Below are positions 4,432 to 45,152 of a DNA stretch of 64,000 nucleotides, one piece after another (position 1 is the stretch's first letter; each line of letters opens with the position of its first letter). Source of the DNA: Sedimentisphaerales bacterium (GTDB lineage: Bacteria; Planctomycetota; Phycisphaerae; Sedimentisphaerales; SM23-30). The DNA lies in assembly GCA_963666285.1 (NCBI GenBank), contig OY762711.1. One strand, given 5' to 3'. The notes below the pieces were generated by a model. That model was not told the DNA's origin, ran no database searches, and saw only the letters and a list, made by a program, of their open reading frames with translations. The translations under genes and the position numbers were made by a program.

Positions 4432-4617
4432 AAGTGCGGTATCGCGCTTTTGACTGCTCAATATTACACGCAAAGGCCGGAACAGGCCATGTAAATAAAA
4501 GACATTACATTTTATTGTATTTCCGAGTTAATTCTCGAAAGTAAATTTAATTCAAAGCGTTGCAGGAAGGCCTTTAAGGCGATTTTTGCAACTTAAAACT
4601 GCGAAAGTAAACATATA
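4432..4617 (+). repeat. Dispersed ~190-bp structured repeat, copy 1 (short-loop allele)
   Basis: Aligns end to end with 5942-6129 and with the reverse complement of 44954-45152. Confidence 0.92.
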
Positions 4618-4655
4618 ACAATCCGAAAATAATAATGGAATTTAAGGAAGTGGTA

Positions 4656-5831
4656 ATGAAAAACACAAGCAAGGCGATATGTATCCTGTCAGCTTTTACT
4701 TTTTTGATTTCTTTATGCAGCTGCGGCTTACTGCCAAGCAAAAAGCCAGAAGTTGTAAACAAGGATATCAGGCTGTCATCAGATATACTTGATAAAATAG
4801 GATTGGAAGAGAAATGGGTCATACAGGATCTTGGCGGTCCTCAGACCACAATCAAAGCCATGTTGAAAAAAGGTTCTGCACTGTACATATTCAACAGTAA
4901 CAGTTCATTTTACTGTATCAACATGCTGACAGGCGGAGTCAACTGGGAGGCTCGCTTTCCTCAAAAGCTCGGCAACCTTGCACAATTGAGCACATACAAC
5001 AACCGTGTACTGATAGCTCTGAGTAACGAGATTTTTGAGCTTAATGTTGAAAATGGCAATGAAACCAACCACTGGGTACTGCCATTTACCCCTACCACTT
5101 CTATTGCCCGCGATGAAGAGCTTCTTTTTGCCGGTGCCAGTGACGACAGATTCTACTGTATGAAACTTCCCCTTTTGACAACTGTATGGAAGAGTCTGCA
5201 GACAGAACAACCTAAAGATGTTATCTGGCTGGATACCCGTGAAGAAAAAGGCAAACGTGTCGGTAATGTATTCTTCACTTGTGATAACGGTACAATGTAT
5301 GCGGCAAAATACGATAAACGCCAGCTGGTATGGGAGTTGAAAACCTCGGGGTCAATTCCTGGCAGCGTATTTGATAAAGATCAATGTTTTGTACCATCTA
5401 CAGACACCGCTCTTTATTGTGTGAATAAAGAAAATGGAAATATTTTCTGGAAATATCTTGCCGGCGGCAAGCTATATGAAGTTCCAGCGGTAACAGAAAA
5501 ATTTGTATATCAGCCGATTTTGAACAAGTCCCTGGTATGTCTGGAAAGATATCCTGAAGGCAAAACTCCGGCAGAAGGCCATGAAAGACTTATCCCTAAG
5601 GTAAGATGGGAACTTAAAACAGGCACAAAAATGTTGAGCGAAGTCGGCGATAGAGTATTTACAGTAAATGAAGCCGGCCAGATGGTTGTAATGAACAATA
5701 AAACGGGTCAGAAAGAATACGCGTTTTATATGCCTAATGTTGATACCTTCTGTAGTAATACCGAAGATGATTTGCTGTTACTGGCAAATAAAACCGGTGA
5801 TATACTGGTATTACAGACCACTCAATACTAA
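4656..5831 (+). CDS. PQQ-like beta-propeller lipoprotein (BamB-like)
   Basis: Lipoprotein-type signal (ISLCSC) and repeated G..W propeller blades. Start placed at 4656 after an AAGGAAG ribosome-binding site; the ORF is open from 4635. Confidence 0.75.
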   Translation: MKNTSKAICILSAFTFLISLCSCGLLPSKKPEVVNKDIRLSSDILDKIGLEEKWVIQDLGGPQTTIKAMLKKGSALYIFNSNSSFYCINMLTGGVNWEARFPQKLGNLAQLSTYNNRVLIALSNEIFELNVENGNETNHWVLPFTPTTSIARDEELLFAGASDDRFYCMKLPLLTTVWKSLQTEQPKDVIWLDTREEKGKRVGNVFFTCDNGTMYAAKYDKRQLVWELKTSGSIPGSVFDKDQCFVPSTDTALYCVNKENGNIFWKYLAGGKLYEVPAVTEKFVYQPILNKSLVCLERYPEGKTPAEGHERLIPKVRWELKTGTKMLSEVGDRVFTVNEAGQMVVMNNKTGQKEYAFYMPNVDTFCSNTEDDLLLLANKTGDILVLQTTQY

Positions 5832-5837
5832 AAGATT

Positions 5838-5871
5838 AAAGCTCTATAAGATAAACTTATAGAGCTTTTTT
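5838..5871 (+). terminator. Rho-independent terminator
   Basis: AAAGCTCTATAAG-ataaa-CTTATAGAGCTTT perfect stem followed by a T tract. Confidence 0.85.
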
Positions 5872-5941
5872 ATTCTAAATTATGTTTTTAGCAGGTATGG
5901 GGAAAAAGGGGAATATGCATTCAGCATAATCAAGACTGATA

Positions 5942-6129
5942 AAGTGCGGTATCGCACTTTTGACTGTTCAACATTATACGCAAAGGCCGGAACAGGGGCC
6001 TTGTGAATGAAAACTTTACTTTTAATTGTATTTTCGAGTTAATTCTCGAATGTAAATTTAATTCATAGTGTTGCAGGAAGGCCCTTTTGGCGATTTTTGC
6101 AACATAAAAACAGCGAAAGCTAACATATA
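5942..6129 (+). repeat. Dispersed ~190-bp structured repeat, copy 2 (short-loop allele)
   Basis: AAGTGCGGTATCGCACTT...TTCGAGTTAATTCTCGAA...GTTGCAGGAAGGCC...TTTTTGCAAC...AGCGAAAGCT, homologous to copy 1. Confidence 0.92.
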
Positions 6130-6167
6130 GAGAGTTTGTTTTTAATTTAATTCAATGACAGGAGCTA

Positions 6168-7790
6168 ATGAGTATGTCATCAATCAAGAGAGCACTTGTT
6201 TCGGTTTCGGACAAGAGCGGTATAGTAGAATTTGCCCGTGCACTAAGCAGCATGGAAGTTGAAATCATAAGTACCGGCGGCACAGCAAAGGCTTTGAAAG
6301 ATGCCGGGGTTAAAGTAATCAATATAGATGATGTAACCGGTTTTCCGGAGATGATGAACGGCCGAGTAAAAACACTCCACCCGAAAATTCACGGCGGATT
6401 ACTGGCTTTACGAGACAATACTGAACATGTCAAGGCAATGGAAGAAAACGGAATTAATGCTATCGACCTGGTATGTGTAAACCTGTATCCATTTGAACAA
6501 ACAGTAGCCAAGCCAGATTGCAGTTTTGAAGATGCAATCGAAAACATCGATATCGGCGGCCCGAGCATGGTGCGATCAGCAGCAAAAAATCACAAATTTG
6601 TTGCCATTGTAACATCTCCTGATCAATACGATACAATTATCGAAGAGATGAAGGCAAATGACGGAGCAGTAACAGATCAGACGAAACGAGAACTGGCAAG
6701 AAAGGCCTTTTCACTGACAGCGGCTTATGATTCTGCTATCAGTAACTGGCTAAACGGCCAGGCGGAAGATAATCTGCCGGAGAAAAAAACCATATCCCTT
6801 GTCCGCAGCAGCGAACTTCGCTACGGCGAGAACCCCCATCAACAGGCCGCGTTCTACCAGCTGGCAAGAAACAGCGGTGAACCTTGTGTCGCTAACGCCA
6901 GGCAACTGGAAGGCGGCAAGCAAATCAGCTTCAATAACCTTATGGATACAAACGCTGCCTTTGAGCTGGTCAAGGAATTTGATATGCCCGCGTCAGTAGT
7001 CGTAAAACACATGAACCCATGCGGCTGTGCGATAGACTCGGACAATATTGTAGAAGCATATCGAAAAGCATATTGTGCAGATGTAACCAGCGCATTCGGC
7101 GGTATCCTGGCATTTAACAGGCCGGTAACAGCTGAGCTGGCAGATGCCATATGCGAAAGCTACGGACGCTGGGGCAAAGATCTTGGCGCTGCCGGATTCT
7201 TTGCTGAAGTTATCATAGCGCCCGCATTTGATGCCGAAGCAGTTGAAATTATCCGTACCCGCAAACGCTGGGGACGTGAAGATGCCAGACTCCTGGAAAC
7301 CGGCCCTATCGATCGCAGCCTTATTGATTGCTGCGAACATGATGTAAGATGCATTGCCGGCGGTATATTATTACAGGAGCGTGACCTGATCGGCTGGGAA
7401 GAAGATCAGATAAAATGTGTTACCAAACGGCAGCCGGACGATCAGGAGCTAATCGACCTGAAACTGGCATGGATAGTAGCCAAGCATGTCAAGAGCAATA
7501 CAATTGTTCTGGCTAAGGATAATGCCGCGGTAGGAGTAGGAGCCGGCCAGATGAACCGGGTTGATTCCGGCATGCTGGCAATTCGTCAGGCAGGTGATAA
7601 GTCCCAGGGTTCGGTAATGGCATCAGATGCATTTTTCCCATTCCCGGACAATGTAACACAGGCAGCCAAAGCCGGCATAACCGCAATTGTTCAACCGGGC
7701 GGCTCGAAAAATGATCAGCTAAGTATTGATGAATGCGATAACCACGATATGGCAATGGTATTTACAGGTAAGAGACACTTTAAACACTGA
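6168..7790 (+). CDS. purH: Bifunctional AICAR transformylase/IMP cyclohydrolase
   Basis: RALVSVSDK, GRVKTLHP, IDIGGPSM, LRYGENPHQ and ASDAFFPF motifs. Confidence 0.98.
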   Translation: MSMSSIKRALVSVSDKSGIVEFARALSSMEVEIISTGGTAKALKDAGVKVINIDDVTGFPEMMNGRVKTLHPKIHGGLLALRDNTEHVKAMEENGINAIDLVCVNLYPFEQTVAKPDCSFEDAIENIDIGGPSMVRSAAKNHKFVAIVTSPDQYDTIIEEMKANDGAVTDQTKRELARKAFSLTAAYDSAISNWLNGQAEDNLPEKKTISLVRSSELRYGENPHQQAAFYQLARNSGEPCVANARQLEGGKQISFNNLMDTNAAFELVKEFDMPASVVVKHMNPCGCAIDSDNIVEAYRKAYCADVTSAFGGILAFNRPVTAELADAICESYGRWGKDLGAAGFFAEVIIAPAFDAEAVEIIRTRKRWGREDARLLETGPIDRSLIDCCEHDVRCIAGGILLQERDLIGWEEDQIKCVTKRQPDDQELIDLKLAWIVAKHVKSNTIVLAKDNAAVGVGAGQMNRVDSGMLAIRQAGDKSQGSVMASDAFFPFPDNVTQAAKAGITAIVQPGGSKNDQLSIDECDNHDMAMVFTGKRHFKH

Positions 7791-7852
7791 TCAGACAGGA
7801 CCTAATAACATTGGTATTACCATAATCAAGACTTTTAGGATAAACAAATAAA

Positions 7853-9766
7853 TTGGCTAAGACAGAAAACAAAACCGAACAAAACCGCCGCAGTTTATCT
7901 GCTGATGGTTTGATAAACTTTTCCGCCAGCAGATTATGGCTTACCGATGGTGCCCTTATGGTACACGATCGAGGGGTGTGTCTGCTCAGCTGGCTGTTTA
8001 ATATTGCCTTGTACCTGATATTGTGCAGTTTTTACAACCGCATAATGACCGGGCAATTCTGGATCGCCGGAGTAAACGCAGAGATAAGGTATATCATCCC
8101 CAATTTCCTGTCTCCGATCAACATATTTGAATTTCCGGCCTATATCCTGCTCTTTGGCGCATTTATGGCAATGATTATAGCGATTCCAATGCTGGTTTCT
8201 CAGCTGTATAACCTGTTTTATGCCCTGCCACTGGTTCTAGTCGGTCTGCTATTATGCCATGACCTGCCAATGTCTCTAAGCATATTTTTTGCCTGCGCGG
8301 CAGTAAGTTTCGATCCGCTACGTTTCAAATCCAAATTTGTCGCGGCGGTCTTATGTATGGCACCTGTCGTTTTTTACTGGGTCGTTTTTGCCGGGCCAAA
8401 TCCCTGGCAGGACAGCGATGCGTTAAGGTGGGCAATTGCTTACAGTCCCCTGGCATTTGCATATTTGAACTGCATACTGATATTTGGCATTACCTTGCTT
8501 ATCGGGCACTTTACCCGTTACAAACCATTTCTGATAGTGCTGGTTTTTCTGGCAACGCTGGGAGTTTCCATATGGCAGTTCTGTGATCGAATAGGCATTA
8601 ATGAACGTGATTTTCGTGCCGAGGTTGTTTCATTCAGTCCCAAGAACATGTCTGAGTTTCAAGACAGAAGCATCGTGCCTTTGATAGAAAAAGAGCGGGC
8701 TGCAATCAAACAGGAACAGCCATATCTAAGTGATGAAGCAATTGACAGCAAAATCAAATTCAGGTGGCGTTGGGCGTTTGCCCTGGAGCCAACTAATGTT
8801 ACGCCGGACTCAGAGGCCGCCAGGATAAGGATTAATATAGCAACAGCCAAAGAGCGGGCAATTGATTCGTTTAAGGGTTTTGTGGAACGTCATCCAAACA
8901 GTAAAAGGCTGGCTGAAGTGCTATACTATCGCGCCTTGACTATCGATATGATAGTTGACCAGCGAGCACTTCGATTTGAAGATTCCCTGAGGTTCACATC
9001 AGAATATACCTCTGAAGAATCTGAATTCCTGTGGCGGGCAATAAAAGAAAAATTCCCTGACAGCATATTTGCGATAGAAGCCAGACTCAGACTGGCACAT
9101 CTGCTGGCAGGTAAAAAACCAACTAATGTAACCGGCACATATAATTTCGACCAGGCAATACTGCTGCTGAAAGACAACCTGGAAACATGCAAAAACAGGA
9201 TAGAACTGATGCGAGCTGAGAGCGGTAAAGATCAACCGCTAGCCGAAACAATAGACGCAATCTTTTTGAAGCCGGAACCAGCTATTACACTGGCCGAGGC
9301 AGAGCAGCTGCAGAAAAGAATTGAAAAGCTAATCTCCCTGATCAGCCTGGAAAACCGGGCCGGCAACCTGAGACATGAGAAACGCCTGGCAGATTTTATC
9401 ATGCTGAACCCCAGTCAGCTGGGGTATGAAGATAAACTGAAAGAGCTGCTGCTGGATAGTCCCAAACCAGACCCACTCATTGACAATATCGAACTGGAGC
9501 TTGCCAGGATAACGCAGAATATCGATGAAAAAGATATCAAGCTAATGAATATTGTTAAGGAATACCCTGAAACTGACGGCGGTATTGCCGCAATGGTAGA
9601 ACTGTCTGACCTGCTGACAAAAAAGATATCACGGACTGACAAACCAGGCGAAAAAGAGATATACAGCAAACAGATAATAGAGCTGTTAAACAAAGTTATA
9701 AGTACGAGAGGTGACAGCTACCTGGCACGCCAAGCCCAAAAAATGCTGGAAACAATGAATAACTAA
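7853..9766 (+). CDS. Multi-TM membrane protein with a C-terminal TPR-like helical domain
   Basis: About 7-8 hydrophobic segments in the N-terminal 245 aa, then TPR-like turns (FVERHPNS, KEKFPDS, VKEYPET). TTG start is uncertain. Confidence 0.7.
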   Translation: MAKTENKTEQNRRSLSADGLINFSASRLWLTDGALMVHDRGVCLLSWLFNIALYLILCSFYNRIMTGQFWIAGVNAEIRYIIPNFLSPINIFEFPAYILLFGAFMAMIIAIPMLVSQLYNLFYALPLVLVGLLLCHDLPMSLSIFFACAAVSFDPLRFKSKFVAAVLCMAPVVFYWVVFAGPNPWQDSDALRWAIAYSPLAFAYLNCILIFGITLLIGHFTRYKPFLIVLVFLATLGVSIWQFCDRIGINERDFRAEVVSFSPKNMSEFQDRSIVPLIEKERAAIKQEQPYLSDEAIDSKIKFRWRWAFALEPTNVTPDSEAARIRINIATAKERAIDSFKGFVERHPNSKRLAEVLYYRALTIDMIVDQRALRFEDSLRFTSEYTSEESEFLWRAIKEKFPDSIFAIEARLRLAHLLAGKKPTNVTGTYNFDQAILLLKDNLETCKNRIELMRAESGKDQPLAETIDAIFLKPEPAITLAEAEQLQKRIEKLISLISLENRAGNLRHEKRLADFIMLNPSQLGYEDKLKELLLDSPKPDPLIDNIELELARITQNIDEKDIKLMNIVKEYPETDGGIAAMVELSDLLTKKISRTDKPGEKEIYSKQIIELLNKVISTRGDSYLARQAQKMLETMNN

Positions 9767-9841
9767 TATGCCGACAATAGTTGTAACGCAACAGCAGTTC
9801 ATCTAAACATGCCATTTCCAATTTTATTATCTAATCTTTTC

Positions 9842-9894
9842 TAAGTGCGATTTATGCTGCGTATCATATGCATGGCGCACTTTTGCATGTTCAA
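9842..9894 (+). repeat. Partial copy of the dispersed repeat (5' hairpin only, long-loop allele)
   Basis: TAAGTGCGATTTATGCTGCGTATCATATGCATGGCGCACTTTTGCATGTTCAA matches the reverse complement of 42605-42656 and of the 5' hairpin end of the 44954-45152 copy. Confidence 0.85.
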
Positions 9895-10158
9895 GGGATC
9901 CGCAATAATGAAATCTGTTTAATAATTTCATTTATAAAAGATTTTGTCATTTTTGATGAAGTATTGAATAAGCTGCAAAAAAGAACCGTAGAAAATATAG
10001 AGCATTGTCAGAATTGCTTCTGCAAATATCATTGTGCCGGGGATTGCCTTACCAGGTCAACAGTTGGAATTACGTTGGATGTAATAACAGACAATACGCG
10101 ATGTATAATTAATCAATCTTTGACACTAGATAAAACTGTCGAGCAATTAGAAGAATAG
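9868..10158 (+). pseudogene. C-terminal SPASM-domain remnant of a radical SAM protein
   Basis: CQNCFCKYHCAGDC...RC fits the SPASM CxxCx5Cx3C...C pattern. The radical SAM core is absent and the ATG comes from the repeat. Confidence 0.7.
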
Positions 10159-10225
10159 TTTATATCTCAAATTAATTGATCTGGATAAAATAACCTGTTT
10201 CAAAACAATTCGTGCAAAATAAGTA

Positions 10226-10795
10226 TCAAAGCCTGGCAGGAAGATCTGAGCGGAAAGGACATCCTTTTCTCGGTTTTGCCTCGGCATTGACAAGGTCATC
10301 AGCCATTTTTTGAGTTAACCGCCATTCATCCTCAGAAATTCGGCTTTTTCTATTTTCGATAATGCCAATATCATCAGAAAGAAACTCGGCAATCAGAGGC
10401 CGAAAATTTGAATATTGTCTATAACTGCAAGGTCCCTGAATTATATCCCGAACAACTTCACTGCCAACAAAATAGGTGTTAACAGTTAAAAGTCTGGATC
10501 CTTTTGACAGTTCATAATCCCTAACAAAACGTTTAGGAAACTTCATATTGACAACGCAATCCAATTCGTCTGTATACGCTGCAACAATCAGGTCTGGCCG
10601 GGTACGGATTACAATTGCGGCCCTACTATCGCCATACAGTAAATGTTCATCAAAATATTCTTCAGGAATTCTATAGCGAATACTAAAAAAACTCCACCAG
10701 GGAAATTTTTTCCTGAAGATATCCAGCTTTTTCCTGCTAAGCCTTACTCCAACTGGGTCACTAGCTTTAGAATTATGGTCCAGATACTTTGCCAT
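10226..10795 (-). CDS. Hypothetical protein
   Basis: 189-aa ORF starting 5 bp after the metG stop, probably co-transcribed. Confidence 0.7.
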   Translation of the reverse strand: MAKYLDHNSKASDPVGVRLSRKKLDIFRKKFPWWSFFSIRYRIPEEYFDEHLLYGDSRAAIVIRTRPDLIVAAYTDELDCVVNMKFPKRFVRDYELSKGSRLLTVNTYFVGSEVVRDIIQGPCSYRQYSNFRPLIAEFLSDDIGIIENRKSRISEDEWRLTQKMADDLVNAEAKPRKGCPFRSDLPARL

Positions 10796-10800
10796 TATAT

Positions 10801-12792
10801 CTATAATTTCTCAGATACTTCCTTTTCGAAGAAGTCGAATTTAGGCGGTACCTCGATGAACTTATGCGATTGAAGGTCATTGACATAATCCTGAACCGGC
10901 GAGAAGATCATTTCCCAGTTCCAGAGCGATTTATCCAGATTGAGATATTCAGCGATGATCTCAGTACCCTTCGGAGCTATCGGATGCAGCAGTTTGGTCG
11001 CAACCAGTACCATATGGAAGACATCTGCCAGGGTCTGCTGACGCAGTTCTTCCTCGCAGCTGTCGTAGAACGGATTGGCGGCCGACCATCGTTTGTTCAT
11101 CTCGCGGATAAAGTTTGTCAGGAGCATAGTGGTCTTGTGGAACTCATGGCTCTGCATGTCGCGTTCGAACTGCAGGATAGTATCGTTACAGATAGTCATA
11201 ACTTCATCGGAAATTTCAGATGCCGGTAATTGGCAATCGTAGAATTTCTGCGAGGTATAGAAGCATGATCGAACGGCCTTATTGAAGGCATTACATAGCA
11301 GGTTGCCTTCCTTGAGGACAGGGTCGGGATCACGTTCGGTAGCTTTCGGGTTGTATGGTTTCGGCTGGAAACTGACGTTTTTCATGCCGAGGCCGAGGCT
11401 GTTGAAGTGCATACGAAGCTGATCGGAGGTATAATGCTCCAGCAGCTCAAAGGCCAGCGGAGGTTTGACCTTACTGGAAGAGCTGGCCTTGATATTCATA
11501 AACAGCAGATGATGGTTGGCAATAAGGGTCGGCAGCTGCAGCTGGCCTTCGACCGGCATCTGCGGATTCGGCCCTTGTGTACCAGTAAAAATGGCAAGTT
11601 CGGGCAGAGCATAGAAATAGATATTATCTTCGCCGATAAACTGATAGATAGCGGTATCAGGCGAGCACCACCAGTCCTGCCATTTATTATTATCTTTATG
11701 GGTATCGGTGTTTTCGAGGAATGTTTTGGTAAATGAGATCGGTGCCCAGAGCGATTCTGGCCATACCCAGAAAGTTAGTCCTGAAAGCGAGTCAATTTCC
11801 GGGACGGGCAGTCCCCAATCGAGATTACCTGTCAGGCGAAACGGTACGAGGCATTTTTCGCTGCGATATAGGACATCGTTATCTCGCAAAACGATTTTTG
11901 CGGTATCCCTGTCGGCGAGGTTATTGAAAAGCAGCCGCACTGAAGGTTTACCATCATCAATATATTCGTGCTCGGGCAATTTAGACAGAACCGGCTGTAG
12001 ATTTTCGACCTGCTTACGAGTGATATGCAGGGTCGGTTTGACCAGATACTCTTTAATAGTGCGAATAACGACTTCTCGGCATTTACCAGAGTTTTCCAGA
12101 TCACTAACCCATTGAGCAATAAGTTTCTCGAACTCCGGGGTTTTGATATACCAGTTAGTAACATCTTTCATAACCGGAGTTTCGCCGGTCACAGCACTTT
12201 TAGGAGCGATGAGGTCTTCCGGTTCATACTGATGACCGAGAGAACATTCATCGGCATAGGCATTTTCAGATTTACAGCCGTAAACCGGGCAGCGGCCAAT
12301 CACCTGGCGACCGTTAAGGAAAGTATCACTTTCGGGGTCGTAGAACTGCTTGGTAGTAAGCTTTTCCAGGTGGCCGTTTTCGTAGAGGGTCTTGATCAGA
12401 TACTCTGCGATGTCCTTATGGTTGGCATATGCCGGGTCGAGACTGGAGGCAGCAAACAAATTCAATTTGACATTATAATCAGAAATTGTTTCGCGCTGCT
12501 TTTTGTGGTTGCGTTTGATATAGTCATCTAGCGAACCCTGGAAGCTGCCGTCGGCGACGACCTTGTTGTAGTCATTAACAATCGGCGAGCCAAAACAGTC
12601 GGTACCGGAGACAAAGACAACATTGTCATATCCGATCCGGTCGCGTAGAAAGCGGGCATAGATATCAGCAGGGATAAAAACACCGCCGATATGTCCGAAA
12701 TGGAGGTCTTTGTTGCCGTATGGCATGCCTGCTGTTATAACTGCACGTTTAGGAAACTGTGGTCTGTTTGTATTATCAATTTTAACTGACAT
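10801..12792 (-). CDS. metG: Methionine--tRNA ligase (class I)
   Basis: TAGMPYGN..LHFGH (HIGH), FVSGTD, zinc-knuckle Cys residues, WGLPVP, FIGEDN; KASSS at the KMSKS position. Confidence 0.9.
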   Translation of the reverse strand: MSVKIDNTNRPQFPKRAVITAGMPYGNKDLHFGHIGGVFIPADIYARFLRDRIGYDNVVFVSGTDCFGSPIVNDYNKVVADGSFQGSLDDYIKRNHKKQRETISDYNVKLNLFAASSLDPAYANHKDIAEYLIKTLYENGHLEKLTTKQFYDPESDTFLNGRQVIGRCPVYGCKSENAYADECSLGHQYEPEDLIAPKSAVTGETPVMKDVTNWYIKTPEFEKLIAQWVSDLENSGKCREVVIRTIKEYLVKPTLHITRKQVENLQPVLSKLPEHEYIDDGKPSVRLLFNNLADRDTAKIVLRDNDVLYRSEKCLVPFRLTGNLDWGLPVPEIDSLSGLTFWVWPESLWAPISFTKTFLENTDTHKDNNKWQDWWCSPDTAIYQFIGEDNIYFYALPELAIFTGTQGPNPQMPVEGQLQLPTLIANHHLLFMNIKASSSSKVKPPLAFELLEHYTSDQLRMHFNSLGLGMKNVSFQPKPYNPKATERDPDPVLKEGNLLCNAFNKAVRSCFYTSQKFYDCQLPASEISDEVMTICNDTILQFERDMQSHEFHKTTMLLTNFIREMNKRWSAANPFYDSCEEELRQQTLADVFHMVLVATKLLHPIAPKGTEIIAEYLNLDKSLWNWEMIFSPVQDYVNDLQSHKFIEVPPKFDFFEKEVSEKL

Positions 12793-12822
12793 ACTTATTT
12801 CTCTTCAATTTAGAATGTGTAT

Positions 12823-14970
12823 TTATTCATTTTCTTTTTCAGCGTGGGCTCCGAACTGCATCTGGTACAGCTGTTTGTACAAAGGAGATTTCTCGAGCAG
12901 CTCGGTATGTGATCCGGTCGCGACAATACGTCCTTTTTCCATAACAACAATCACATCGGCATCAAGAATTGTACTAAGCCTGTGAGCGATAATAAACGAA
13001 GTACGGCCCTGGGAGAATTCTCTTAGAGCTGCCTGGATCTTGGCCTCACTGTCAGAATCGATCTGGCTGGTAGCCTCGTCGAAAATCAGGATAGCCGGAT
13101 CACGCAGAATGGCACGGGCAATCGCCAGACGCTGCAGCTGGCCGCCGGAAAGGGTTGAGCCCTGTTCGCCGATCATCTCATCATAGCGGTTAGCCTTTTC
13201 ATTTATAAATTCATCAGCGTAGGCATGTTTTGCCGCTTCCTGAATCTTTTCCAGCGGAGCATCGGGCATGCCGTAAGCAATATTGTTGGCAATAGTATCG
13301 TTAAATATAACCGTATTCTGGGTGACGATTCCAAGCTGGCCTCGAAGCGAGCTGAGGGTAGCTTTTGTAATATCGACGCCATCAATCATTATTCTACCGC
13401 TGTTAAGAGAAAAGAACCGTGGAATCATGCTAAGCAGCGTAGTCTTGCCGGAGCCGTTTGGCCCGACAACAGCAATAGTCTGACCTGCTTTAACAGAAAG
13501 GTTAATATCAACCAGGTTAGGCTCAGGGCTGCCGGGGTAAGTAAAGCTTACATCACGGAACTCGATCGATTCCCGGACAGGCGGGATCTCAACGGCATCC
13601 GGGTCGTCCTGCTCAATTTCCCTGTCAAATAGTTCATAAACCCGCTGGGCCGAGGCATTGGCTTCCTGGATAGAAGGGATAACATCGCCAAGCTTACGGC
13701 CGCTTTCACCTGCGGTAGCTAAAAGAGCTATCAAAGTGATAAAATTTTCAATTGTCATTTCGCTGCCTTCAAGCATACGAAGGGCAAAGAACATACCGAT
13801 GCAACCACCTGCAAAGGCAAGAGCTTCAATAGTCGGACTTGAAGAAGCCTCAACCTTGGCCTTTTTGAGCTGTTTTTTGAGGAGATTATTGTTAACTTTG
13901 ACAAAACGCTCGGTTTCCCACTCTTCCCGATGGTAGCCCTTGACAACTTTTATGCCAAAGAAAGCTTCCTGGAGTTTGCCGAGGAGTAAGGACCATCGCT
14001 TTAATGTCCTGGTAGTCGCTTTTTTGCTTTTTTTGCCAATTCGACCAATGACAATTAAAATAATCGGTCCGGCACACGCAGTAATAAGCGTTATCTTTGG
14101 CTCAATCTGGTAAGCCCCGATAAACAGAGCAATAACAGTCAGAGGTTCGCGGACAGCTTTACCAAACAAAATGGAAATACCACGCCTGACACGGTTACTA
14201 TCCTGGATAAAACGGCTGATAGTATCGCTAACACCTTCGTTGGTATAAAAACTGAGCGGCATACGAATAGTACGAGTAAAAGTTTCATTTCGTAAATTCT
14301 GTATAGCCACCAATGATATTTTCTTCACTATATACTCATGGGAAAATCTGGCAACACACCTGATAATAGCAATAACAAGTATGGTCCAAATGCAAACAGC
14401 TATACACCGGTACTTATAATCCTTACCAATACCTCGCGGAATTTTATCTACGACATATTTAGCTATATTAGAAAAACTAATTACCTTTTTGGCTTCTGGT
14501 TCGAGCTCGACAAGCTCTTCCGAACGATCACGATGCCTGACGAATACAAATACCTTTTCATCAGAATTGGCAATAGCGGCAATTGTATCAAGCGGATTTT
14601 TAACGGCAGGCTTATATGAATCCTGAGGAGCTTCAGTTAAAACTTCAAGAATTTCATCGCCAACCTTTAGATTATTATCTTCATCGTTCACTTCCAGCTT
14701 GGTAACCATAGGCGGGATGAAGCGAGAAATATTACCGTCACCAAACTCTTTCGGCTCTTCAATAAGTAAAGTGACACCGGTACGATCTTTAACAACAAAA
14801 CTGTCAACCCAGCCATGAAGCCCCTGATCGCTAAGCATCATTTTAAAAACAGGCAACATCATCGAGATATTTATTGCCATAAGGATACTTACAACAAAAG
14901 CCAGAATTACTGACGGGACCAGTAGTCCCTTTTGCTGGAAGACGTATTTTAGTATGCGTTTGAAATACAT
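12823..14970 (-). CDS. MsbA-like ABC exporter (TMD + NBD) with a large periplasmic insertion
   Basis: GPNGSGKT, LSGGQ, ILIFDEATS and IAHRL motifs; about 140-aa insert after TM1. Confidence 0.9.
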   Translation of the reverse strand: MYFKRILKYVFQQKGLLVPSVILAFVVSILMAINISMMLPVFKMMLSDQGLHGWVDSFVVKDRTGVTLLIEEPKEFGDGNISRFIPPMVTKLEVNDEDNNLKVGDEILEVLTEAPQDSYKPAVKNPLDTIAAIANSDEKVFVFVRHRDRSEELVELEPEAKKVISFSNIAKYVVDKIPRGIGKDYKYRCIAVCIWTILVIAIIRCVARFSHEYIVKKISLVAIQNLRNETFTRTIRMPLSFYTNEGVSDTISRFIQDSNRVRRGISILFGKAVREPLTVIALFIGAYQIEPKITLITACAGPIILIVIGRIGKKSKKATTRTLKRWSLLLGKLQEAFFGIKVVKGYHREEWETERFVKVNNNLLKKQLKKAKVEASSSPTIEALAFAGGCIGMFFALRMLEGSEMTIENFITLIALLATAGESGRKLGDVIPSIQEANASAQRVYELFDREIEQDDPDAVEIPPVRESIEFRDVSFTYPGSPEPNLVDINLSVKAGQTIAVVGPNGSGKTTLLSMIPRFFSLNSGRIMIDGVDITKATLSSLRGQLGIVTQNTVIFNDTIANNIAYGMPDAPLEKIQEAAKHAYADEFINEKANRYDEMIGEQGSTLSGGQLQRLAIARAILRDPAILIFDEATSQIDSDSEAKIQAALREFSQGRTSFIIAHRLSTILDADVIVVMEKGRIVATGSHTELLEKSPLYKQLYQMQFGAHAEKENE

Positions 14971-15042
14971 ATATTGTTCAACTGACAGCTAATAGTTTAT
15001 AACTAATAGCTAAGGTGTCGCTGTGCGACGGTTTTAATAATC

Positions 15043-15087
15043 AGCGTGGGTATTTGTATGCTTTCGGTGCAAAACTTACCACACTAC
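15043..15087 (-). repeat. GTAG-type REP-like palindrome
   Basis: Minus strand reads GTAGTGTGGTAAG-TTTTGCACCGAAAGCATACAAA-TACCCACGCT: a GTAG tetranucleotide followed by an imperfect hairpin. Confidence 0.4.
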
Positions 15088-15112
15088 ATATTTACAAGCC
15101 ACACAAATAAAC

Positions 15113-16240
15113 TTATGGCAGGAATTTTTTTATGTCTTTAAGTTTGTCCGGCAGATATTGCTTAACAACAAAATCGAGGCCATGCTTGGCAAATGCCTGC
15201 TGTTCGACACGGACGCCGGCCTTAAGCATCTGAGTAATAGCTTTCTGCCATAGCTTATGATGATGAACAAAGGGGTCGTTCTTCATAGCATCCTTGGCAC
15301 GTTTGATATCGACATCTTTGAGCTTATGGGTCGGCAGCTCATAATCGATAACATCCTGAGGAGTAACGCCGAGGAACCTGGCCTGGGGTACACAGAAAAA
15401 CTCATTAAGGTGAGCGGCATTACCGGAACCAACCTTTAACGTACGGTAAATATTGAAATAACCGTAAGGATCGCCATCGACAAAGGCATATACAGGGATT
15501 TTCAACTCATCACTAAGCCGACGGATAAAACGACGGCAGGCACGAGTCGGTACGCCCCCCATACTGACAAGAATACACTGGGCGGAATCCCAATAGCCGT
15601 ATTTAACCAGACGCTGGAACATACCGGCGGTTTCGATAGCAAGTATGAATTTCGCCTTGCTGCGGAATTCCAGGTGTTCAACATCAATAGGAATAGAATA
15701 TGAACCGGAGCCAAACTTTGTGCAATCGATTCTCAGTCGTTTGCCGTCAAGGTCGCGGTCAATAACTTCAAGACGACCGGCAACTTCTCCGCCCTTTTCT
15801 TCCGGTATGAATTTCAGTTTTTCCCGGATAACACCAAACATGGCTTCAATATCTTCCATGACGGTATCAGACTCGGGCTGTTCCTTAAAGGCGGCATCTT
15901 CCCAGTTTTTACTGATATAATATGCTTCCCTCTTGGTAGCCATATCGTCCATTTCGATAAGCTCTTTACTGAGAGCCATCATTTTCATAGTCTGGGCGAA
16001 AGTTTTGACCGTATTAACTGTGAAATTACGTTCCTTAACATTCCCTTTAAGCTCGAAACATCCTTTTCTTTCATCATAGGAAACATTTGTCAACGATCTG
16101 ACCGGAATCCTCATATTCGGGATAGCCAGCCGATTTATCTTGGAATGGATATCCTTAGCGGATTCCTTGATCATTTTGATCACATCGATCTTATTTGCAC
16201 TGGAAGTTTTTTTGGTAGTTTTAGCTTCGGCCTTTGCCAT
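15113..16240 (-). CDS. top6A: DNA topoisomerase VI subunit A (Spo11-like)
   Basis: TKREAYY (catalytic Tyr), F.EQ.ESD, TOPRIM AIETAG and VDGDPYG, G.P.RA.RRF. Start placed at ATG 16240 after a GGAG ribosome-binding site. Confidence 0.93.
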   Translation of the reverse strand: MAKAEAKTTKKTSSANKIDVIKMIKESAKDIHSKINRLAIPNMRIPVRSLTNVSYDERKGCFELKGNVKERNFTVNTVKTFAQTMKMMALSKELIEMDDMATKREAYYISKNWEDAAFKEQPESDTVMEDIEAMFGVIREKLKFIPEEKGGEVAGRLEVIDRDLDGKRLRIDCTKFGSGSYSIPIDVEHLEFRSKAKFILAIETAGMFQRLVKYGYWDSAQCILVSMGGVPTRACRRFIRRLSDELKIPVYAFVDGDPYGYFNIYRTLKVGSGNAAHLNEFFCVPQARFLGVTPQDVIDYELPTHKLKDVDIKRAKDAMKNDPFVHHHKLWQKAITQMLKAGVRVEQQAFAKHGLDFVVKQYLPDKLKDIKKFLP

Positions 16241-16984
16241 ATATTGCTCCATCAATAAAATATAGAGAAACCTCAAGAAGCCGGCGACTTTCAGGCAGTC
16301 TAACTTAGGCTTCCAAAATCATTTCTCTCATTCCGGCAAACCAAAAAATATTGATCTATGCCAGAACATGTTAATCCTTTATATATAATAAAATCTACAT
16401 ATATTATTGTCATAAAGGTATCTTTTTCAAGCGTTTATGCAAATAATACAACATAAACTTTATTATTATCGGACATTTTGCTCTAAATGCCACAATAATA
16501 AAACGAAATATGATAACCTCCGGGCAGTCATGCCGCAACCAAAAAAGCAACCTGCATAAAGATGCGAGTGACCGAATACAGAAGAAAAAGTATTTTGAGT
16601 GATGATATCAAAATCAAATCTAACAACAACATTAAGCTATATAGATTTGGGCCTACCACACATCAATTAAGTCATTTTAAGTCAAATCAGGGTTAATAGA
16701 TACGCATTGTCCATTTAAATTAGTATAGATAAGCAAACAAGGGCATAAAAATATTGATGAAAATGCAAAAAAACTATATAATGGCTATTCTGACTTAAAG
16801 AAAGGCTGTAAATGATATTAACCTGATAATTACATATAGCTAAAGTAATTATTTACAGTGAGTTATAACAATATTTAGCAATAAGCCCACCAAAGATAGT
16901 TTATTCAGATATAAATGGTATTACCATGTTTCGCAAACAAGCATGAATCCCTATTTATCTATTGAAATAAGTTGAGACAATTAT

Positions 16985-17767
16985 ATGCTGGCAAAAAGAA
17001 TAATCCCCTGCCTGGATGTAGATAAAGGACGAGTAGTAAAAGGCGTAAAGTTTTTTGACCATGTTGATGCAGGCTCTGTATCAGAATGTGCAATACGCTA
17101 CGAACAGCAGGGAGCCGACGAGCTGGTGTTTTATGACATAACAGCCAGTCATGAGAAACGGGATTTGACCCTTGATGTTTTACGTGATGTTTCCGAGAAG
17201 GTATTTATGCCTTTGACAGTCGGAGGCGGCATAAGGACCATTGATGATGTTCGCATAATGTTAAACAATGGTGCAGATAAAGTCAGTATTAATTCAGCAG
17301 CGGTCCTCGATAAATCATTAATCAAAGAATCAGCCCTTCGTTTCGGCAGCCAGTGCATCGTTTTGGCTATTGATGCCAACCGGGTTATGAAAGACGGTAA
17401 AGAATTCTGGGAAGTATTTATTAACGGCGGTCGTAAAGGAACCGGAATAGGTGTTATGGAATGGGTACGCAAAGGTTATGCAGACGGAGCAGGAGAGATC
17501 GTTCTGAATGTTATGAACTCTGACGGAACCAAAGCGGGATATGACCTGGAAATGACCTCGGCAGTAGCCGAAGAAGTAAACATACCAGTAGTCGCCAGCG
17601 GCGGGGCCGGAACACTGGAGGACATGTACAAAGTATTAACAGAAGGCAAAGCCGAAGCTGCCCTGGCAGCAAGTATTTTCCACTTTGGCAACTATACGAT
17701 CCAGGAAGTAAAAGATTATTTAAGCGAAAAGGGAATAGTGGTGAGAAATATTGCAGCCATTTCCTGA
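16985..17767 (+). CDS. hisF: Imidazole glycerol phosphate synthase cyclase subunit
   Basis: [41 protein letters not shown] and ALAASIFH motifs. Confidence 0.98.
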
Positions 17768-17824
17768 TTCATTATAATATTATTATATCTTGTTTTTATT
17801 GCAATTTAGTAGGAGTAATAAGTT

Positions 17825-18958: not shown

Positions 18959-19025
18959 TAATCAAATTCAAATACGAAATTTTAATTGTTAATAGACATA
19001 AATTAAAAAGTTACCAGGAAACACT

Positions 19026-20669: not shown

Positions 20670-20750
20670 TAGGGATAGTTAAGTAATCAAACAACCGCGG
20701 TAACAAAAGAGATAACAAAATAAAGATATATTATTCCCGGAGAATATAAA

Positions 20751-21866: not shown

Positions 21867-21893
21867 CGGTATTTGAAATAAAATCAGACTACC

Positions 21894-21929: not shown

Positions 21930-21940
21930 GGAGAATATAC

Positions 21941-30573: not shown

Positions 30574-30621
30574 GACGAACTAAGGCATAAGCGATTAAAC
30601 TACAAAACAGCAAGTATATCC

Positions 30622-30658
30622 AAGCAGGTTGCGGCAGAGTCGCAATCTGCTTTTTTTT
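30622..30658 (+). terminator. Rho-independent terminator
   Basis: AAGCAGGTTGCGGC-aga-GTCGCAATCTGCTT followed by a T tract. Confidence 0.8.
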
Positions 30659-30663
30659 ATTAT

Positions 30664-31785: not shown

Positions 31786-31786
31786 A

Positions 31787-31819
31787 AAAACACCCTGTGA
31801 ATCAATCAACAGGGTGTTT
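31787..31819. terminator. Bidirectional terminator between convergent genes
   Basis: AAACACCCTGT...ACAGGGTGTTT inverted repeat. Confidence 0.75.
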
Positions 31820-31855
31820 GAAATTCTATAGTCTCTTTAGAGCACTTCAATTCAG

Positions 31856-42312: not shown

Positions 42313-42604
42313 CAGTCACACCTTTCTTTCAACATCCACCACATAATACCCTAAAATCGAAACACTTACAACATTTTCAAAACAATCATCACTTGCGTCA
42401 GCCTTTCATTTTCGTGCTAAACAGTGATGTGAAGCATAAATTTTATATTATTGCTTCAAAACCTTTGCGAACTTTGCGGGCTCTGCGAGATACATAAATT
42501 CTGATTCTATCTGGATAATTCAAAACCCGCCGTAAGGCGATTTAAACTAGCTTTCCGCCTCTGGCGGATTACCATAGCTTATTTCTTATTACTCTTACTT
42601 TCGC

Positions 42605-42656
42605 TGAACTGTCAAAAGTACGCCATGCATATTATGCAAAACATAAACCGCACTTA
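42605..42656 (-). repeat. Partial copy of the dispersed repeat (5' hairpin, long-loop allele)
   Basis: Reverse complement TAAGTGCGGTTTATGTTTTGCATAATATGCATGGCGTACTTTTGACAGTTCA. Confidence 0.88.
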
Positions 42657-42879
42657 CATAAACACTAAAATTAAAAGGAGTTAGAAAAAACAATGCGATA
42701 TATTACATTGGCTAGATCTAACCCATAAATACTTTTGCAGCAATAATAATTGGGCTAAAAACAGCGAAAAAATCTAATTATTTGTTGAGTTTTTTGCTAA
42801 TGACCATTAAAGTTATCATTCAGAATTAAAGTTCTTTAATGTTAAACAATTTCTGAACTCATGTATAGGAGCCAAGTTT

Positions 42880-44199
42880 ATGAGAAGGTTAACGGTATTT
42901 TTTTTATTAGCATTTTTTGTCGCGAGTAATGTTTATGCGATTAACGTCAAAAGAATAGGCGATAGTGCCGGCCCTGGCGGAGCTGGTGATTATAAAGGAG
43001 AAGGTGTTCTGAAGGGCATGCCTGACCCTGCAATTATTCAGGCAAAAGATGGATCATATTATATCTTTGCCACCGGCAAAGGCCTGCCTTTCTACCATTC
43101 AACTGACCTGCTGAACTGGACTGAAATCGGACGCGTCTTCGACAAAGCAGTTCCTGACTGGTCCAAAAAGGCAATTCCCGACACAGAAGGCATCTGGGCA
43201 CCCGATATTGTCAAACTAAATAATATGTTTTATGTTTATTACTCGGTCTCTTCTTTTGGCGCTCAAAAATCTGTGATAGGTGTTGCACGCAATAAAACCC
43301 TGGACCCGAAATCTCCTGACTATAAATGGGAAGACCAGGGCTTGGTTATAAAGTCATTCGCCACAAAAGAATATGACTACAATGCCATCGACCCGGCTGC
43401 AATCCAGACATCTGACGGTAAAGCCTATATTGTATGGGGCTCTCACTGGAACGGACTAAAGTTTGCTGAACTGAACCCTGAAACGGGCAAGCTTAAAGAA
43501 GGCACAAAGATTAAAACTGTAGCAACCCGCCAGCCGGTCGGCAAGCAAGCTATCGAAGGCGGCTACCTGGTACAGTATATGGGCTACTTCTACCTGATGG
43601 TATCTTTCGACAACTGTTGTGCAGGTGCTGAAAGCACATATAAAGTAATGGTCGGACGTGCCAAAAATATTGAAGGACCTTACCTTGACTTTGACGGCAA
43701 TGATATGGCCCAGGGCGGCGGCACTCTCGTATTGGCCAATAACGATAACTGGCGTGGTCCGGGACACAATTCTGTACTAACCACAGATAAAGGCCATTGG
43801 ATTGTTCACCATACCTACGATACAAATGATATCGGTGCCCAGCGTATCGGACAGATTAGGCCAATGTACTGGACTGAAGATCTTTGGCCGGTCGTAGGAG
43901 AGCCATTGAGCGATGATAATCTGATGTGTACTAAAAAGGCAAAAGTCACTTCAAGGGATATTGAAGGCAGCTGGCGACTTTCAAACAATTATGGTCCCGA
44001 AACCATTTATGACTTCCTGCCCGATGGAGTCATCGCCGGTCATAATAATGTCAAATGGGGCATCGCCGACAATGAAATAACAATCAAATGGAATATTAAC
44101 GGCAATGAATACATTGATAAATGTATTGTTGAGCCAAACAAAGATTCATTTATTGGCAGAAATAACGATGGCGCTGTAATTCGCGGCACAAAAATATAA
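42880..44199 (+). CDS. Secreted GH43 glycoside hydrolase (endo-arabinanase-like)
   Basis: Signal peptide; DP.II, WAPD, NAIDP, IEG, YK.MVGR and GPGHNS motifs. Confidence 0.9.
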   Translation: MRRLTVFFLLAFFVASNVYAINVKRIGDSAGPGGAGDYKGEGVLKGMPDPAIIQAKDGSYYIFATGKGLPFYHSTDLLNWTEIGRVFDKAVPDWSKKAIPDTEGIWAPDIVKLNNMFYVYYSVSSFGAQKSVIGVARNKTLDPKSPDYKWEDQGLVIKSFATKEYDYNAIDPAAIQTSDGKAYIVWGSHWNGLKFAELNPETGKLKEGTKIKTVATRQPVGKQAIEGGYLVQYMGYFYLMVSFDNCCAGAESTYKVMVGRAKNIEGPYLDFDGNDMAQGGGTLVLANNDNWRGPGHNSVLTTDKGHWIVHHTYDTNDIGAQRIGQIRPMYWTEDLWPVVGEPLSDDNLMCTKKAKVTSRDIEGSWRLSNNYGPETIYDFLPDGVIAGHNNVKWGIADNEITIKWNINGNEYIDKCIVEPNKDSFIGRNNDGAVIRGTKI

Positions 44200-44220
44200 C
44201 ATTCTTTCGATATCAGAATT

Positions 44221-44260
44221 AAAAAAGGCAGGCCGGACTTAACAGTCTTTCCTGCCTTTT
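44221..44260. terminator. Bidirectional terminator
   Basis: AAAAGGCAGG...CCTGCCTTTT between convergent genes. Confidence 0.7.
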
Positions 44261-44285
44261 ACTTTAACCATAATAAACAGATCGC

Positions 44286-44807
44286 TTATCCGGCCAAAAG
44301 TATTCGACCGGCCTGTAAGATAACCCCGGCATACACGCCCGCTGCAATATCATCAAATAACACACCCCATTTGCTCTTTTGCCTGTCAAAATAACTTGCA
44401 GGCCAGATTTTTATAATATCAAATACACGGAACAGAAAAAAACCGGCTGCAAAATAGTATATTATGTGACTGGCTGGCATTTGGTCCCAACTAAGGAGCC
44501 AGAACAGGGTTATTGCCTGGCCGGAAACCTCATCTGAGACAATCATTCCGGGATCATCGCCGTAATTTTCAATCCCCTTATCACCAAAGTATATCGTAGC
44601 CCAAAAGCCATAAATAAATAGCAATACAAGAGTTAGAGCGACAATCAGAGTCGACTTAAAGATAAAGGCAACCGCAAAAGCGATCAGGGCCGTCCAAAGC
44701 GAACCCCATGTACCGGGAGCAAAAGGCATAAAGCCCATACCGAAAGCGGATAAAAAAAGTTTATACGGTTCTATTTTTTTGATTTCTTTTTCATTCATTA
44801 TCATCAA
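44286..44807 (-). CDS. pgpA: Phosphatidylglycerophosphatase A
   Basis: G..PFAPGTWGS, DP..IV.DEV.G, FR.FDI.K.WP and G...DD..AG motifs. The start may be 44804 or 44798. Confidence 0.93.
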   Translation of the reverse strand: MMIMNEKEIKKIEPYKLFLSAFGMGFMPFAPGTWGSLWTALIAFAVAFIFKSTLIVALTLVLLFIYGFWATIYFGDKGIENYGDDPGMIVSDEVSGQAITLFWLLSWDQMPASHIIYYFAAGFFLFRVFDIIKIWPASYFDRQKSKWGVLFDDIAAGVYAGVILQAGRILLAG

Positions 44808-44953
44808 CCTTAAGTATTTTTATCGCAAGCAAATGCAGTATAAGATTTTAGGTTACGGTTTACACTTGCTTTTTATCTCTATTTGGGACTATTATATTAG
44901 GGTTATAACTTGCTATTTTCAAGTTTCAATAAATATCAATTATGTATTAGTAG

Positions 44954-45152
44954 ACTTTTGCAGTTTTTAAGTTGCATAAATCGCCTAAAAGGGCCTTCCT
45001 GCAACGCTTTGAATTAAATATTCTTTCGAGAATTAGCTCGGAAATACATTTAAATATGAAGTTTTTCATTCACAAGGCCCTGTTTCGGCTTTGCGTGTAA
45101 TGTTAACAGTCAAAAGTGCGCCATGCATATGATGCAAAGCATAAACCGCACT
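44954..45152 (-). repeat. Dispersed structured repeat, copy 3 (full length, long-loop allele)
   Basis: Reverse complement aligns with copies 1 and 2 and carries a ~25-nt insertion in the first hairpin loop. Confidence 0.92.

What the first reader, a model, noticed from the sequence alone, without database searches (positions are those of the whole stretch)
4432..45152. Dispersed ~190-bp highly structured non-coding repeat family (3 full and 2 partial copies in 64 kb)
Seen: full copies at 4432-4617(+), 5942-6129(+) and 44954-45152(-); 5'-only copies at 9842-9894(+) and 42605-42656(-). All are intergenic, have no ORF and have diverged by scattered substitutions. The full copies form a chain of stems: AAGTGCG/CGCACTT; CGCAA.GGCC/GGCCTTGTG; TTCGAG/CTCGAA; GTTGCAGGAA/TTTTTGCAAC (needs G-U pairs, so strand-specific); and a final GAAA-tetraloop stem. 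That last stem changes compensatorily between copy 1 (TGC-GAAA-GTA) and copy 2 (AGC-GAAA-GCT), though copy 3 is weaker. Copies 1 and 2 end ~40 nt before co-oriented starts (the BamB-like gene and purH). Copies 2 and 3 also share an upstream ATCAAGAC(T/A)GATA. I could see no terminal inverted repeats or target duplications. Inference: either an unannotated structured RNA family or a non-autonomous hairpin-ended mobile element (REP/IS200-IS605/HUH-mobilised type). The density suggests many copies genome-wide.
Basis: partly seen in the sequence, partly recalled or inferred. Interest (0 to 1): 0.8.

Follow-up and report, generated by a model that had tools for sequence, protein, structure and literature searches.

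The report
IS701-type MITE tracking hidden strand-polarity domains
The repeat is a small non-coding jumping element with about 240 traces in this planctomycete chromosome, likely moved by an IS701-family transposase, and nine in ten copies point the way of alternating 20-340 kb strand-asymmetry domains that neither the normal two-arm replication pattern nor gene direction explains.

Summary
The repeat is real but is a MITE, not an RNA gene: 144 complete copies plus 96 orphan ends. The scan filed this MITE before, elsewhere in this genome (e1-9905670). New here: 219/240 loci lie on the purine-rich strand of alternating 20-340 kb skew domains (rotation null 50%, maximum 65%). This skew has the same sign in + and - genes, adds to the ordinary replichore skew, and leaves the leading-strand gene bias unchanged (62% in both domain types), so it is not inverted replichores. 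Two unrelated MITE families (30/30, 56/57) and heptamer arrays follow it. A separate 470-bp non-coding element (30 copies) marks domain starts: skew follows it downstream (29/30), not upstream (13/30). Domains recur in two congeners, not in an order-level control. Co-oriented MITE domains were noted in another planctomycete (e1-5251605) and ascribed to replication. The cause is inferred: local one-way DNA synthesis that transposases target.

The parts
4434..4612 (+). MITE copy 1 (short 5' form, middle type A, 179 bp); flanking 5-mers decayed (3 mismatches)
   Evidence: the orthologous gap has no element in G001 and G003
5944..6124 (+). MITE copy 2 (short 5' form, middle type A, 181 bp) between the PQQ/BamB-like gene and purH
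   Evidence: no element in this gap in the G001, G002 and G003 loci
5939..5943 (+). left target 5-mer of copy 2 (one mismatch to 6125-6129)
6125..6129 (+). right target 5-mer of copy 2
5944..5963 (+). GTGCGG-type terminal inverted repeat, folding into a terminal hairpin (5944-5957); inferred to be the right end of the parent IS
5979..6005 (+). internal GC-rich hairpin; the exchangeable middle begins behind it
6070..6103 (+). sub-terminal hairpin; both-side changes between genomes, decay within this genome
6106..6124 (-). second terminal inverted repeat, most like the left ends of IS701_3-family elements
44950..45151 (-). MITE copy 3 (long 5' form with the 22-nt hairpin cassette, 202 bp)
45152..45156 (-). 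5' target duplication of copy 3 (exact pair with 44945-44949)
44945..44949 (-). 3' target duplication of copy 3
9845..9905 (+). 5' part of a decayed long-form copy; a degenerate right end may lie about 140 bp from its start
42602..42653 (-). 5' part of a truncated long-form copy
1..32000 (+). stretch of a purine-rich-plus-strand skew domain (D +0.18 to +0.50 per 8 kb) holding the three + copies; both - copies sit where D drops to about -0.1 to -0.2 (40-48 kb)

Best explanation
The repeat is a 165-250 bp MITE with terminal inverted repeats and 5-bp target duplications, likely cut and pasted in trans by an IS701-family DDE transposase, and about 90% of its copies lie on the purine-rich strand of local skew domains, likely because insertion happens on a directional, replication-like DNA synthesis process that is not the ordinary origin-to-terminus fork. 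Shown: ends, duplications, empty sites, a matching IS701_3 element, modular hairpin cassettes, the orientation rule, the independence of the skew domains from replichores and gene direction, and a 470-bp element X at domain starts. Inferred: that this transposase family moves the MITE; that orientation is set at insertion rather than by later loss; that the domains record local one-way DNA synthesis or single-strand exposure starting at X and at other unidentified sites. My odds: MITE identity about 0.95; IS701_3-family mobiliser about 0.85; orientation set at insertion by a non-replichore directional process about 0.55.
For: TSD 50/113 exact versus 1.8. Removing the copy at C1:5214283 plus one 5-mer gives a 97% match to unfilled paralogous sites without a gap at the junction; 3 of 144 copies have paralogous empty sites. 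Orthologous gaps are empty in congeners. TSDs are exact in 4 of 5 full congener copies inspected. A 1,427-bp IS (7 identical copies plus 1 at 89%) has TIRs sharing the MITE's inner TIR and 5-bp TSDs in 8 of 8; its 430-aa protein scores 286.5 bits on NF049999 IS701_3, cut-off 170. About 18 of 25 related loci examined carry the same TIR core. Two distant relatives (L059, L063) end in GTGCGGTTT at the right, as the MITE does at one end. Rival ISs leave 6-bp (IS701) or 8-bp (IS256) duplications. Orientation: 219/240 loci follow local D, rotation null mean 0.495, maximum 0.65; the majority agrees in 52 of 57 occupied domains. D correlates between + and - genes (rho 0.80, n=197). Skew classes are additive: replichore part about G +0.08, T +0.09; domain part about G +0.21, T -0.17. 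Genes are 62% leading in both domain classes and 1297:1243 on versus off the purine-rich strand. Target-site preference predicts only 53%. Other MITE families follow D 30/30 and 56/57; heptamer arrays 312/352. G003: 13 of 14 copies follow D. X: D positive downstream in 29/30, upstream 13/30, rotation maximum 0.80; MITE loci within 40 kb downstream of the nearest X are co-oriented 42/43.
Against: The autonomous IS701_3 copies do not follow the rule (3 of 8 in the MITE-equivalent orientation). No exact parent was found: the IS shares only the TIRs with the MITE, and TSDs could not be confirmed for L059 or L063. G001, G002 and G003 hold the MITE but no IS701_3 match over the cut-off (0 of 3). G001 copies follow D in only 1 of 4 (baseline from four loci only). 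Rare substitutions in MITE copies show no strand asymmetry (G>T 9.6 versus C>A 10.6 per 1000), so an ongoing mutational bias is not demonstrated; an earlier smaller set suggested an excess in the wrong direction. X lies within 12 kb of only 6 of 16 strong domain starts. X was not found in 40 relatives by BLAST apart from one 31-bp hit, nor by profile in the G003, G001 and G025 stretches fetched. 157 of 240 MITE loci lie over 100 kb from an upstream X, where co-orientation with it is 87:70.
Confidence: 0.6

Rival explanations
1. The domains are fossil replichores: an older G+A leading-strand skew was scrambled by many inversions after most MITEs had inserted with an ordinary replication-linked bias.
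For: Replication-linked IS orientation is documented (PMC3971601). The genome is rich in repeats that could mediate inversions. Earlier notes e1-5251605 and e1-2370960 read similar patterns this way. An old skew plus a newer replichore skew would also look additive.
Against: Inverted blocks should flip the gene-strand bias, yet genes are 62% leading in both classes and unbiased relative to the purine-rich strand. Rising boundaries are sharp and falling ones gradual (sawtooth), whereas inversion breakpoints should be symmetric. X has skew downstream only. Most of the 11 youngest copies sit on the locally purine-rich strand. IS701 showed no bias in that survey.
Confidence: 0.15
2. MITEs insert in either direction and wrong-way copies are purged, because their hairpins or bound proteins block a polar process (long transcription or a DNA translocase) running along each domain.
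For: The 7 identical, very recent IS701_3 copies are not oriented. Hairpins are kept by compensatory change between master lineages.
Against: Unrelated MITE families with no obvious shared sequence follow the rule at 98-100%. Near-identical young copies already obey it. Orientation is unrelated to neighbouring genes. No terminator-like hit falls inside copies 1 and 2.
Confidence: 0.15
3. The element is primarily a functional structured RNA that happens to be dispersed.
For: Folds better than shuffles. Across four sources, 6 pairs have both-side changes and 0/500 shuffles reach the covariation score, though the sequences are related. A compensatory terminal-hairpin variant occurs in 10 copies.
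Against: TIRs, TSDs and empty sites. Both strands fold similarly. The sub-terminal stem is intact in 48 of 95 copies with no compensatory double change inside the genome. RNAalifold covariation term +0.19. No Rfam match. No tie to gene direction.
Confidence: 0.06
4. The element is a single-strand (HUH: RAYT, IS200/IS605, IS91) non-autonomous element.
For: Terminal and sub-terminal hairpins and strong strand polarity.
Against: HUH transposition leaves no target duplication (established knowledge), yet variable 5-bp duplications are present. No fixed tetranucleotide target. TIRs match a DDE element.
Confidence: 0.02

Closest known systems
Prokaryotic MITEs (review PMC10969869; e.g. QMITE2 of Coxiella; Correia, RUP)
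   Same: Short, AT-rich, intergenic, TIRs plus direct repeats that decay with age, stem-loops, inferred IS origin and mobilisation in trans (passages).
   Different: One TIR is rearranged into a terminal hairpin and, in 39 of 113 copies, split by a 22-nt cassette without loss of TSDs. The middle is exchangeable and carries heptamer runs and foreign hairpins. Orientation is fixed by skew domains; the word 'orientation' does not occur in that review.
IS701 family, NCBIfam NF049999 (transpos_IS701_3), Sedimentisphaerales clade
   Same: Shared TIR core and 5-bp A/T-rich duplication; GTGCGG right end in two distant members.
   Different: The MITE encodes nothing and shares no internal sequence with the resident IS. 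The resident IS is not domain-oriented.
Replication-linked IS orientation bias through the beta clamp (Gomez et al. 2014, PMC3971601)
   Same: Family-wide orientation bias tied to strand asymmetry and argued to arise at insertion.
   Different: There the reference is the oriC-ter replichore and IS701 showed little bias. Here the replichore predicts 94:50 while local domains predict 131:13 among complete copies, with dozens of polarity switches.
Skew N-domains of mammalian genomes
   Same: Sharp upward skew jumps followed by gradual decline.
   Different: Bacterial chromosome, 20-340 kb scale, G+A rather than G+T signature, superimposed on a normal two-replichore skew.
ColE1-type R-loop-primed unidirectional origins (recalled, not tested)
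   Same: X has a T-rich 5' part and a 43% G 3' part and acts one way only.
   Different: No homology, transcript or priming shown; X does not fold better than shuffles (z 0.3).

Membership tests
MITE | short, non-coding, many dispersed copies | tested here: met
   144 complete copies, mostly 165-250 bp, plus orphan ends; 7 of 144 fall inside ORFs of my simple caller
MITE | terminal inverted repeats | tested here: met
   imperfect TIRs, consensus comparison
MITE | target-site duplication | tested here: met
   5 bp, 50/113 exact versus 1.8 shuffled
MITE | empty sites | tested here: met
   paralogous for 3 of 144 copies, one at 97%; orthologous gaps of copies 1 and 2 empty in congeners
MITE | mobilised in trans by a partner transposase | not testable with these tools
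   inferred from shared TIR and TSD length
IS701_3 (NF049999) derivative | TIR and TSD length shared with an autonomous member | tested here: met
   other resident ISs leave 6- or 8-bp duplications
IS701_3 (NF049999) derivative | sub-terminal sequence shared with a parent element | tested here: inconclusive
   only 22-28 bp end matches, E 0.003-0.08, among 32 related loci; no exact parent
IS200/IS605, REP/RAYT or IS91 (HUH) non-autonomous element | no target duplication; fixed tetranucleotide target | tested here: not met
   variable 5-bp duplication, no fixed flank
Known structured RNA family (Rfam) | match to a covariance model at the gathering score | tested here: not met
   0 matches in the window
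Structured non-coding RNA (new) | strand-specific covariation maintained in all copies | tested here: inconclusive
   both-side changes between lineages, decay within the genome and no + strand G-U preference
Structured non-coding RNA (new) | discrete transcript | not testable with these tools
   no run on record as RNA
Replichore-linked orientation bias (PMC3971601) | orientation set by the oriC-ter fork direction | tested here: not met
   runs of orientation persist within replichores (38 versus 66 expected, 0/5000); local D predicts 131:13, the replichore 94:50

The most novel reading that the evidence does not exclude
This planctomycete genus runs a second, dispersed mode of chromosomal DNA synthesis. 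It starts at dozens of local sites, 30 of them marked in this genome by a 470-bp non-coding element X that would act as a one-way (possibly R-loop-primed) origin, and runs for tens of kilobases. It leaves a G+A strand signature on top of the normal replichore skew and is the substrate on which unrelated transposases insert, so MITE orientation maps it.
Probability: 0.3. Interest if true: 0.88.

Novelty: new variant of a known kind. Interest (0 to 1): 0.62.

Why it matters
The MITE alone is ordinary. Its orientation, however, reports a chromosome-wide polarity that a single origin and gene direction do not explain. If it reflects dispersed one-way DNA synthesis or single-strand exposure, bacteria have a second layer of strand asymmetry that directs transposition and shapes silent-site composition. 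The finding gives concrete handles: mapped domains, a candidate start element in 30 copies, a resident transposase with a marked substrate, two congeners with the pattern and one order-level relative without it in the stretch examined.

Tried and rejected
Rfam: no match in the window; for six X loci only one chance-level hit, E 0.59. Group II intron reading of the GTGCG...AC ends: dropped on length and on the TSDs. Composite or cargo elements between orphan ends 5.7 and 6.4 kb apart: flanking 5-mers do not match. Local hopping as the cause of co-orientation: neighbours are not more alike (rho 0.013). Local gene direction as the cause: 64:80 at 25 kb. Target-site preference: 53%. Conjugation: no PF02534 coupling protein found in the genome (one family only). 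Sequencing runs: 5 listed, no RNA holder listed. Contigs of runs X1-X5 laid on two stretches showed no joint that removes a copy exactly (tables were cut and coverage by other strains was low); no conclusion drawn. Metagenome pattern scan: 1 locus, a copy beside an unrelated IS701 with different TIRs. Viral scan for an X motif: 0. Four G003 domain starts showed no X match and no single shared element that I could isolate. Two scripts ended in errors after printing part of their output; the missing parts were rerun. Rows dropped: 31 of 144 complete copies lacked clean ends and were left out of TSD, identity and stem counts; ORFs under 150 aa were left out of skew. Literature searches found no paper on this MITE or on such domains; the library lacks most subscription journals and no supplements were read.
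Full report
Observation. The five copies are in the window, with exact ends at 4434-4612 (+), 5944-6124 (+) and 45151-44950 (-), plus 5' parts at 9845 (+) and 42653 (-). The window is C1:4320001-4384000 of a 6.35-Mb genome in four contigs. Named relatives of its transposase come mostly from Sedimentisphaerales and other planctomycetes. Profile searches found 183 5' ends and 200 3' ends on C1 and none in the reversed genome; 144 pairs lie within 400 bp, giving 240 loci. BLAST found the element in 3 of 3 congeners and 0 of 27 other relatives. Rfam gave nothing.

It is a MITE. Ends are sharp. In 113 of 144 copies with clean ends, the five bases before and after are identical in 50 (shuffled mean 1.8, maximum 6), and no other length stands out apart from the overlap of this signal. 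The two ends are imperfect inverted repeats. One copy sits inside another repeat; with the element and one 5-mer removed, the site matches unfilled paralogues at 97% with no gap at the junction, and two more copies have empty paralogues at about 75%. The gene order small ORF, PQQ-like gene, purH is kept in G001 and G003 with no element in either gap. Congener copies also carry 5-bp duplications, exact in 4 of 5 full copies inspected.

The likely mobiliser. Self-comparison revealed a 1,427-bp IS in 7 identical copies and one 89% copy, all 8 with 5-bp duplications and TIRs that share the MITE's inner TIR. Its 430-aa protein is an IS701-family DDE transposase (NF049999, 286.5 bits against a cut-off of 170; PF13546). 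Of 32 related loci, 25 near-complete ones were examined and most share the TIR core. The MITE's 3' end resembles their left ends, and two distant members have a right end beginning GTGCGGTTT like the MITE's 5' end. Limits: no exact parent, no TSD for those two distant members, and no IS701_3 over the cut-off in three congeners. Two other resident ISs with look-alike TIRs leave 6-bp and 8-bp duplications.

Structure. Copies are mosaics: a short or long 5' hairpin, middle type A or B (B holds heptamer runs), and optional cassettes found in 39, 37, 12, 6 and 2 of 113 copies; one cassette is mostly found outside MITEs (56 of 79 genome hits). TSD rates are similar in all forms. Folding beats shuffles on both strands. 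A compensatory terminal-hairpin variant occurs in 10 copies against 66 of the main form, while the sub-terminal stem is intact in 48 of 95 with no double change. Across 11 sequences from four sources, 6 pairs show both-side changes, 5 of them in that stem (related sequences, so not a probability), and the RNAalifold covariation term is +0.19. Hairpins are thus kept among master lineages and decay after insertion, as a MITE review describes for repeats (PMC10969869, passages). Orientation relative to the next gene is 74:70.

The orientation rule. Copies come in same-strand runs (36 runs against 73); pairs within 20 kb agree 95% of the time without being more alike. The replichore explains little (94:50). 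I computed codon-family-corrected G-C and T-A skew at fourfold sites and defined D as their difference. D forms domains of 20-340 kb (76 segments by my segmentation, some of them small and weak) and correlates between + and - genes (rho 0.80). Class means are additive: a replichore term (G about +0.08, T about +0.09) plus a domain term (G about +0.21, T about -0.17). Genes are 62% leading in both domain classes and 1297:1243 relative to the purine-rich strand. The MITE follows D at 219 of 240 loci (rotation null 0.495, maximum 0.65 in 1000), with the majority agreeing in 52 of 57 occupied segments; target preference predicts 53%. Two unrelated MITE families follow at 30/30 and 56/57, several ISs partly (9/11, 8/9, 4/4, 4/5), others not (IS701_3 3/8; another repeat 3/8; 2/4). 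Heptamer arrays follow at 312/352. Rising boundaries are sharp, falling ones gradual.

Other genomes. In G003, 13 of 14 copies follow D, and fetched stretches show strong domains with sharp starts. In G001, 415 kb show domains (sd 0.24; + versus - genes rho 0.77), but only 1 of 4 copies agreed. In G025, of the same order but another family, 400 kb show none (sd 0.06), so the signal is not a method artefact.

Element X. Two switch points shared a 470-bp non-coding sequence, which has 30 full copies, none in the window (example C1:2347214-2347668, L089). Along X, D is positive in 30/30 copies at 5-10 kb and 29/30 at 10-20 kb downstream, against 14/30 and 15/30 upstream, and fades by about 100 kb; downstream genes are not co-oriented (46-55%). 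MITEs, in contrast, have symmetric D on both sides, so they follow domains while X marks starts. X has no Rfam match, does not fold better than shuffles and has a 43% G 3' half. Against a general role: X is near 6 of 16 strong rising boundaries (0 of 18 falling) and was not found in relatives. X may be a cause or only a marker.

Mechanism. Most likely an IS701_3-family transposase acts in trans on the MITE's TIRs and makes a 5-bp staggered cut in A/T-rich DNA (inferred from family knowledge). Orientation is most likely set at insertion by a directional cue, as argued for beta-clamp-binding transposases (PMC3971601, passages and section 13). Because the cue follows D and not the replichore, I infer local one-way DNA synthesis or single-strand exposure starting at X and other sites. 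This last step is unproven: rare MITE substitutions show no asymmetry and the recent IS701_3 copies are unoriented.

Prior art. I reached the MITE reading before the look-up; note e1-9905670 had filed it from another window of this genome. After my skew analysis, one search showed e1-5251605 (another planctomycete) and e1-2370960 (Acidobacteria) with domain-wise co-oriented MITEs ascribed to replication, and archaeal notes on repeat-anchored skew; I did not test those genomes. Nine paper searches gave no description of this MITE or of such domains. Apart from the two papers above I saw listings only, and no supplements, where MITE lists could lie. N-domains, ColE1 priming and the lack of target duplication in HUH elements are recalled, not from calls.

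Verdict. The element is a new member of an ordinary class, already seen by the scan (about 0.25 alone). The separation of its orientation rule from replichores, the cross-genome replication with a negative control and a candidate start element raise the interest to 0.62.

Noticed in passing
G000 C1, e.g. L089:515-969 (C1:2347214-2347668, +): Element X: 470-bp non-coding family, 30 full copies at about 80% identity, followed by heptamer arrays; strand skew and MITE orientation follow it downstream only.
   Followed up: partly
G000 C1 whole chromosome; G003 and G001 stretches (L071-L088, L109-L148): Sawtooth G+A strand-skew domains of 20-340 kb on top of the normal replichore skew; absent from 400 kb of G025 (L149-L168).
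   Followed up: yes
G000 C1, e.g. 57290-57450, 66480-66640, 485960-486120: A second MITE family of about 178 bp (56-58 copies, TIRs, T/A-rich flanks), 56 of 57 oriented with the domains; partner not sought.
   Followed up: partly
G000 C1, e.g. 4257601-4257704: A third MITE family (about 30 copies) resembling the end of a 1.8-kb IS with a 528-aa ORF (3 copies); 30/30 and 3/3 oriented alike.
   Followed up: partly
L011:261-1550 (-): The IS701_3 transposase gene has a 450-aa open frame on the opposite strand; L014 and L065 IS701 genes also do.
   Followed up: no
L014 (C1:514321-515657 and 4 more copies): Second IS701 element (NF033540) with look-alike TIRs and apparent 6-bp duplications.
   Followed up: partly
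   Followed up: no
G000 C1:6147507 and 1186136: Two dnaA homologues, neither at the cumulative GC-skew minimum near 5.69 Mb.
   Followed up: no
window 1604-2971 (+): 455-aa protein with a weak, below-cut-off Pfam ATLF (zinc metallopeptidase-like) match over residues 142-208.
   Followed up: no
window 4147-4425 region (+), upstream of copy 1: Small conserved ORF (about 90 aa, 67-73% identical in G001 and G003) ending 8 bp before copy 1; function not examined.
   Followed up: no
window 5838-5868: Bidirectional terminator-like hairpin behind the PQQ/BamB-like gene, outside the MITE.
   Followed up: no
G000 C2-C4: Three extra contigs of 65.6-66.6 kb with no MITE or X copy.
   Followed up: no
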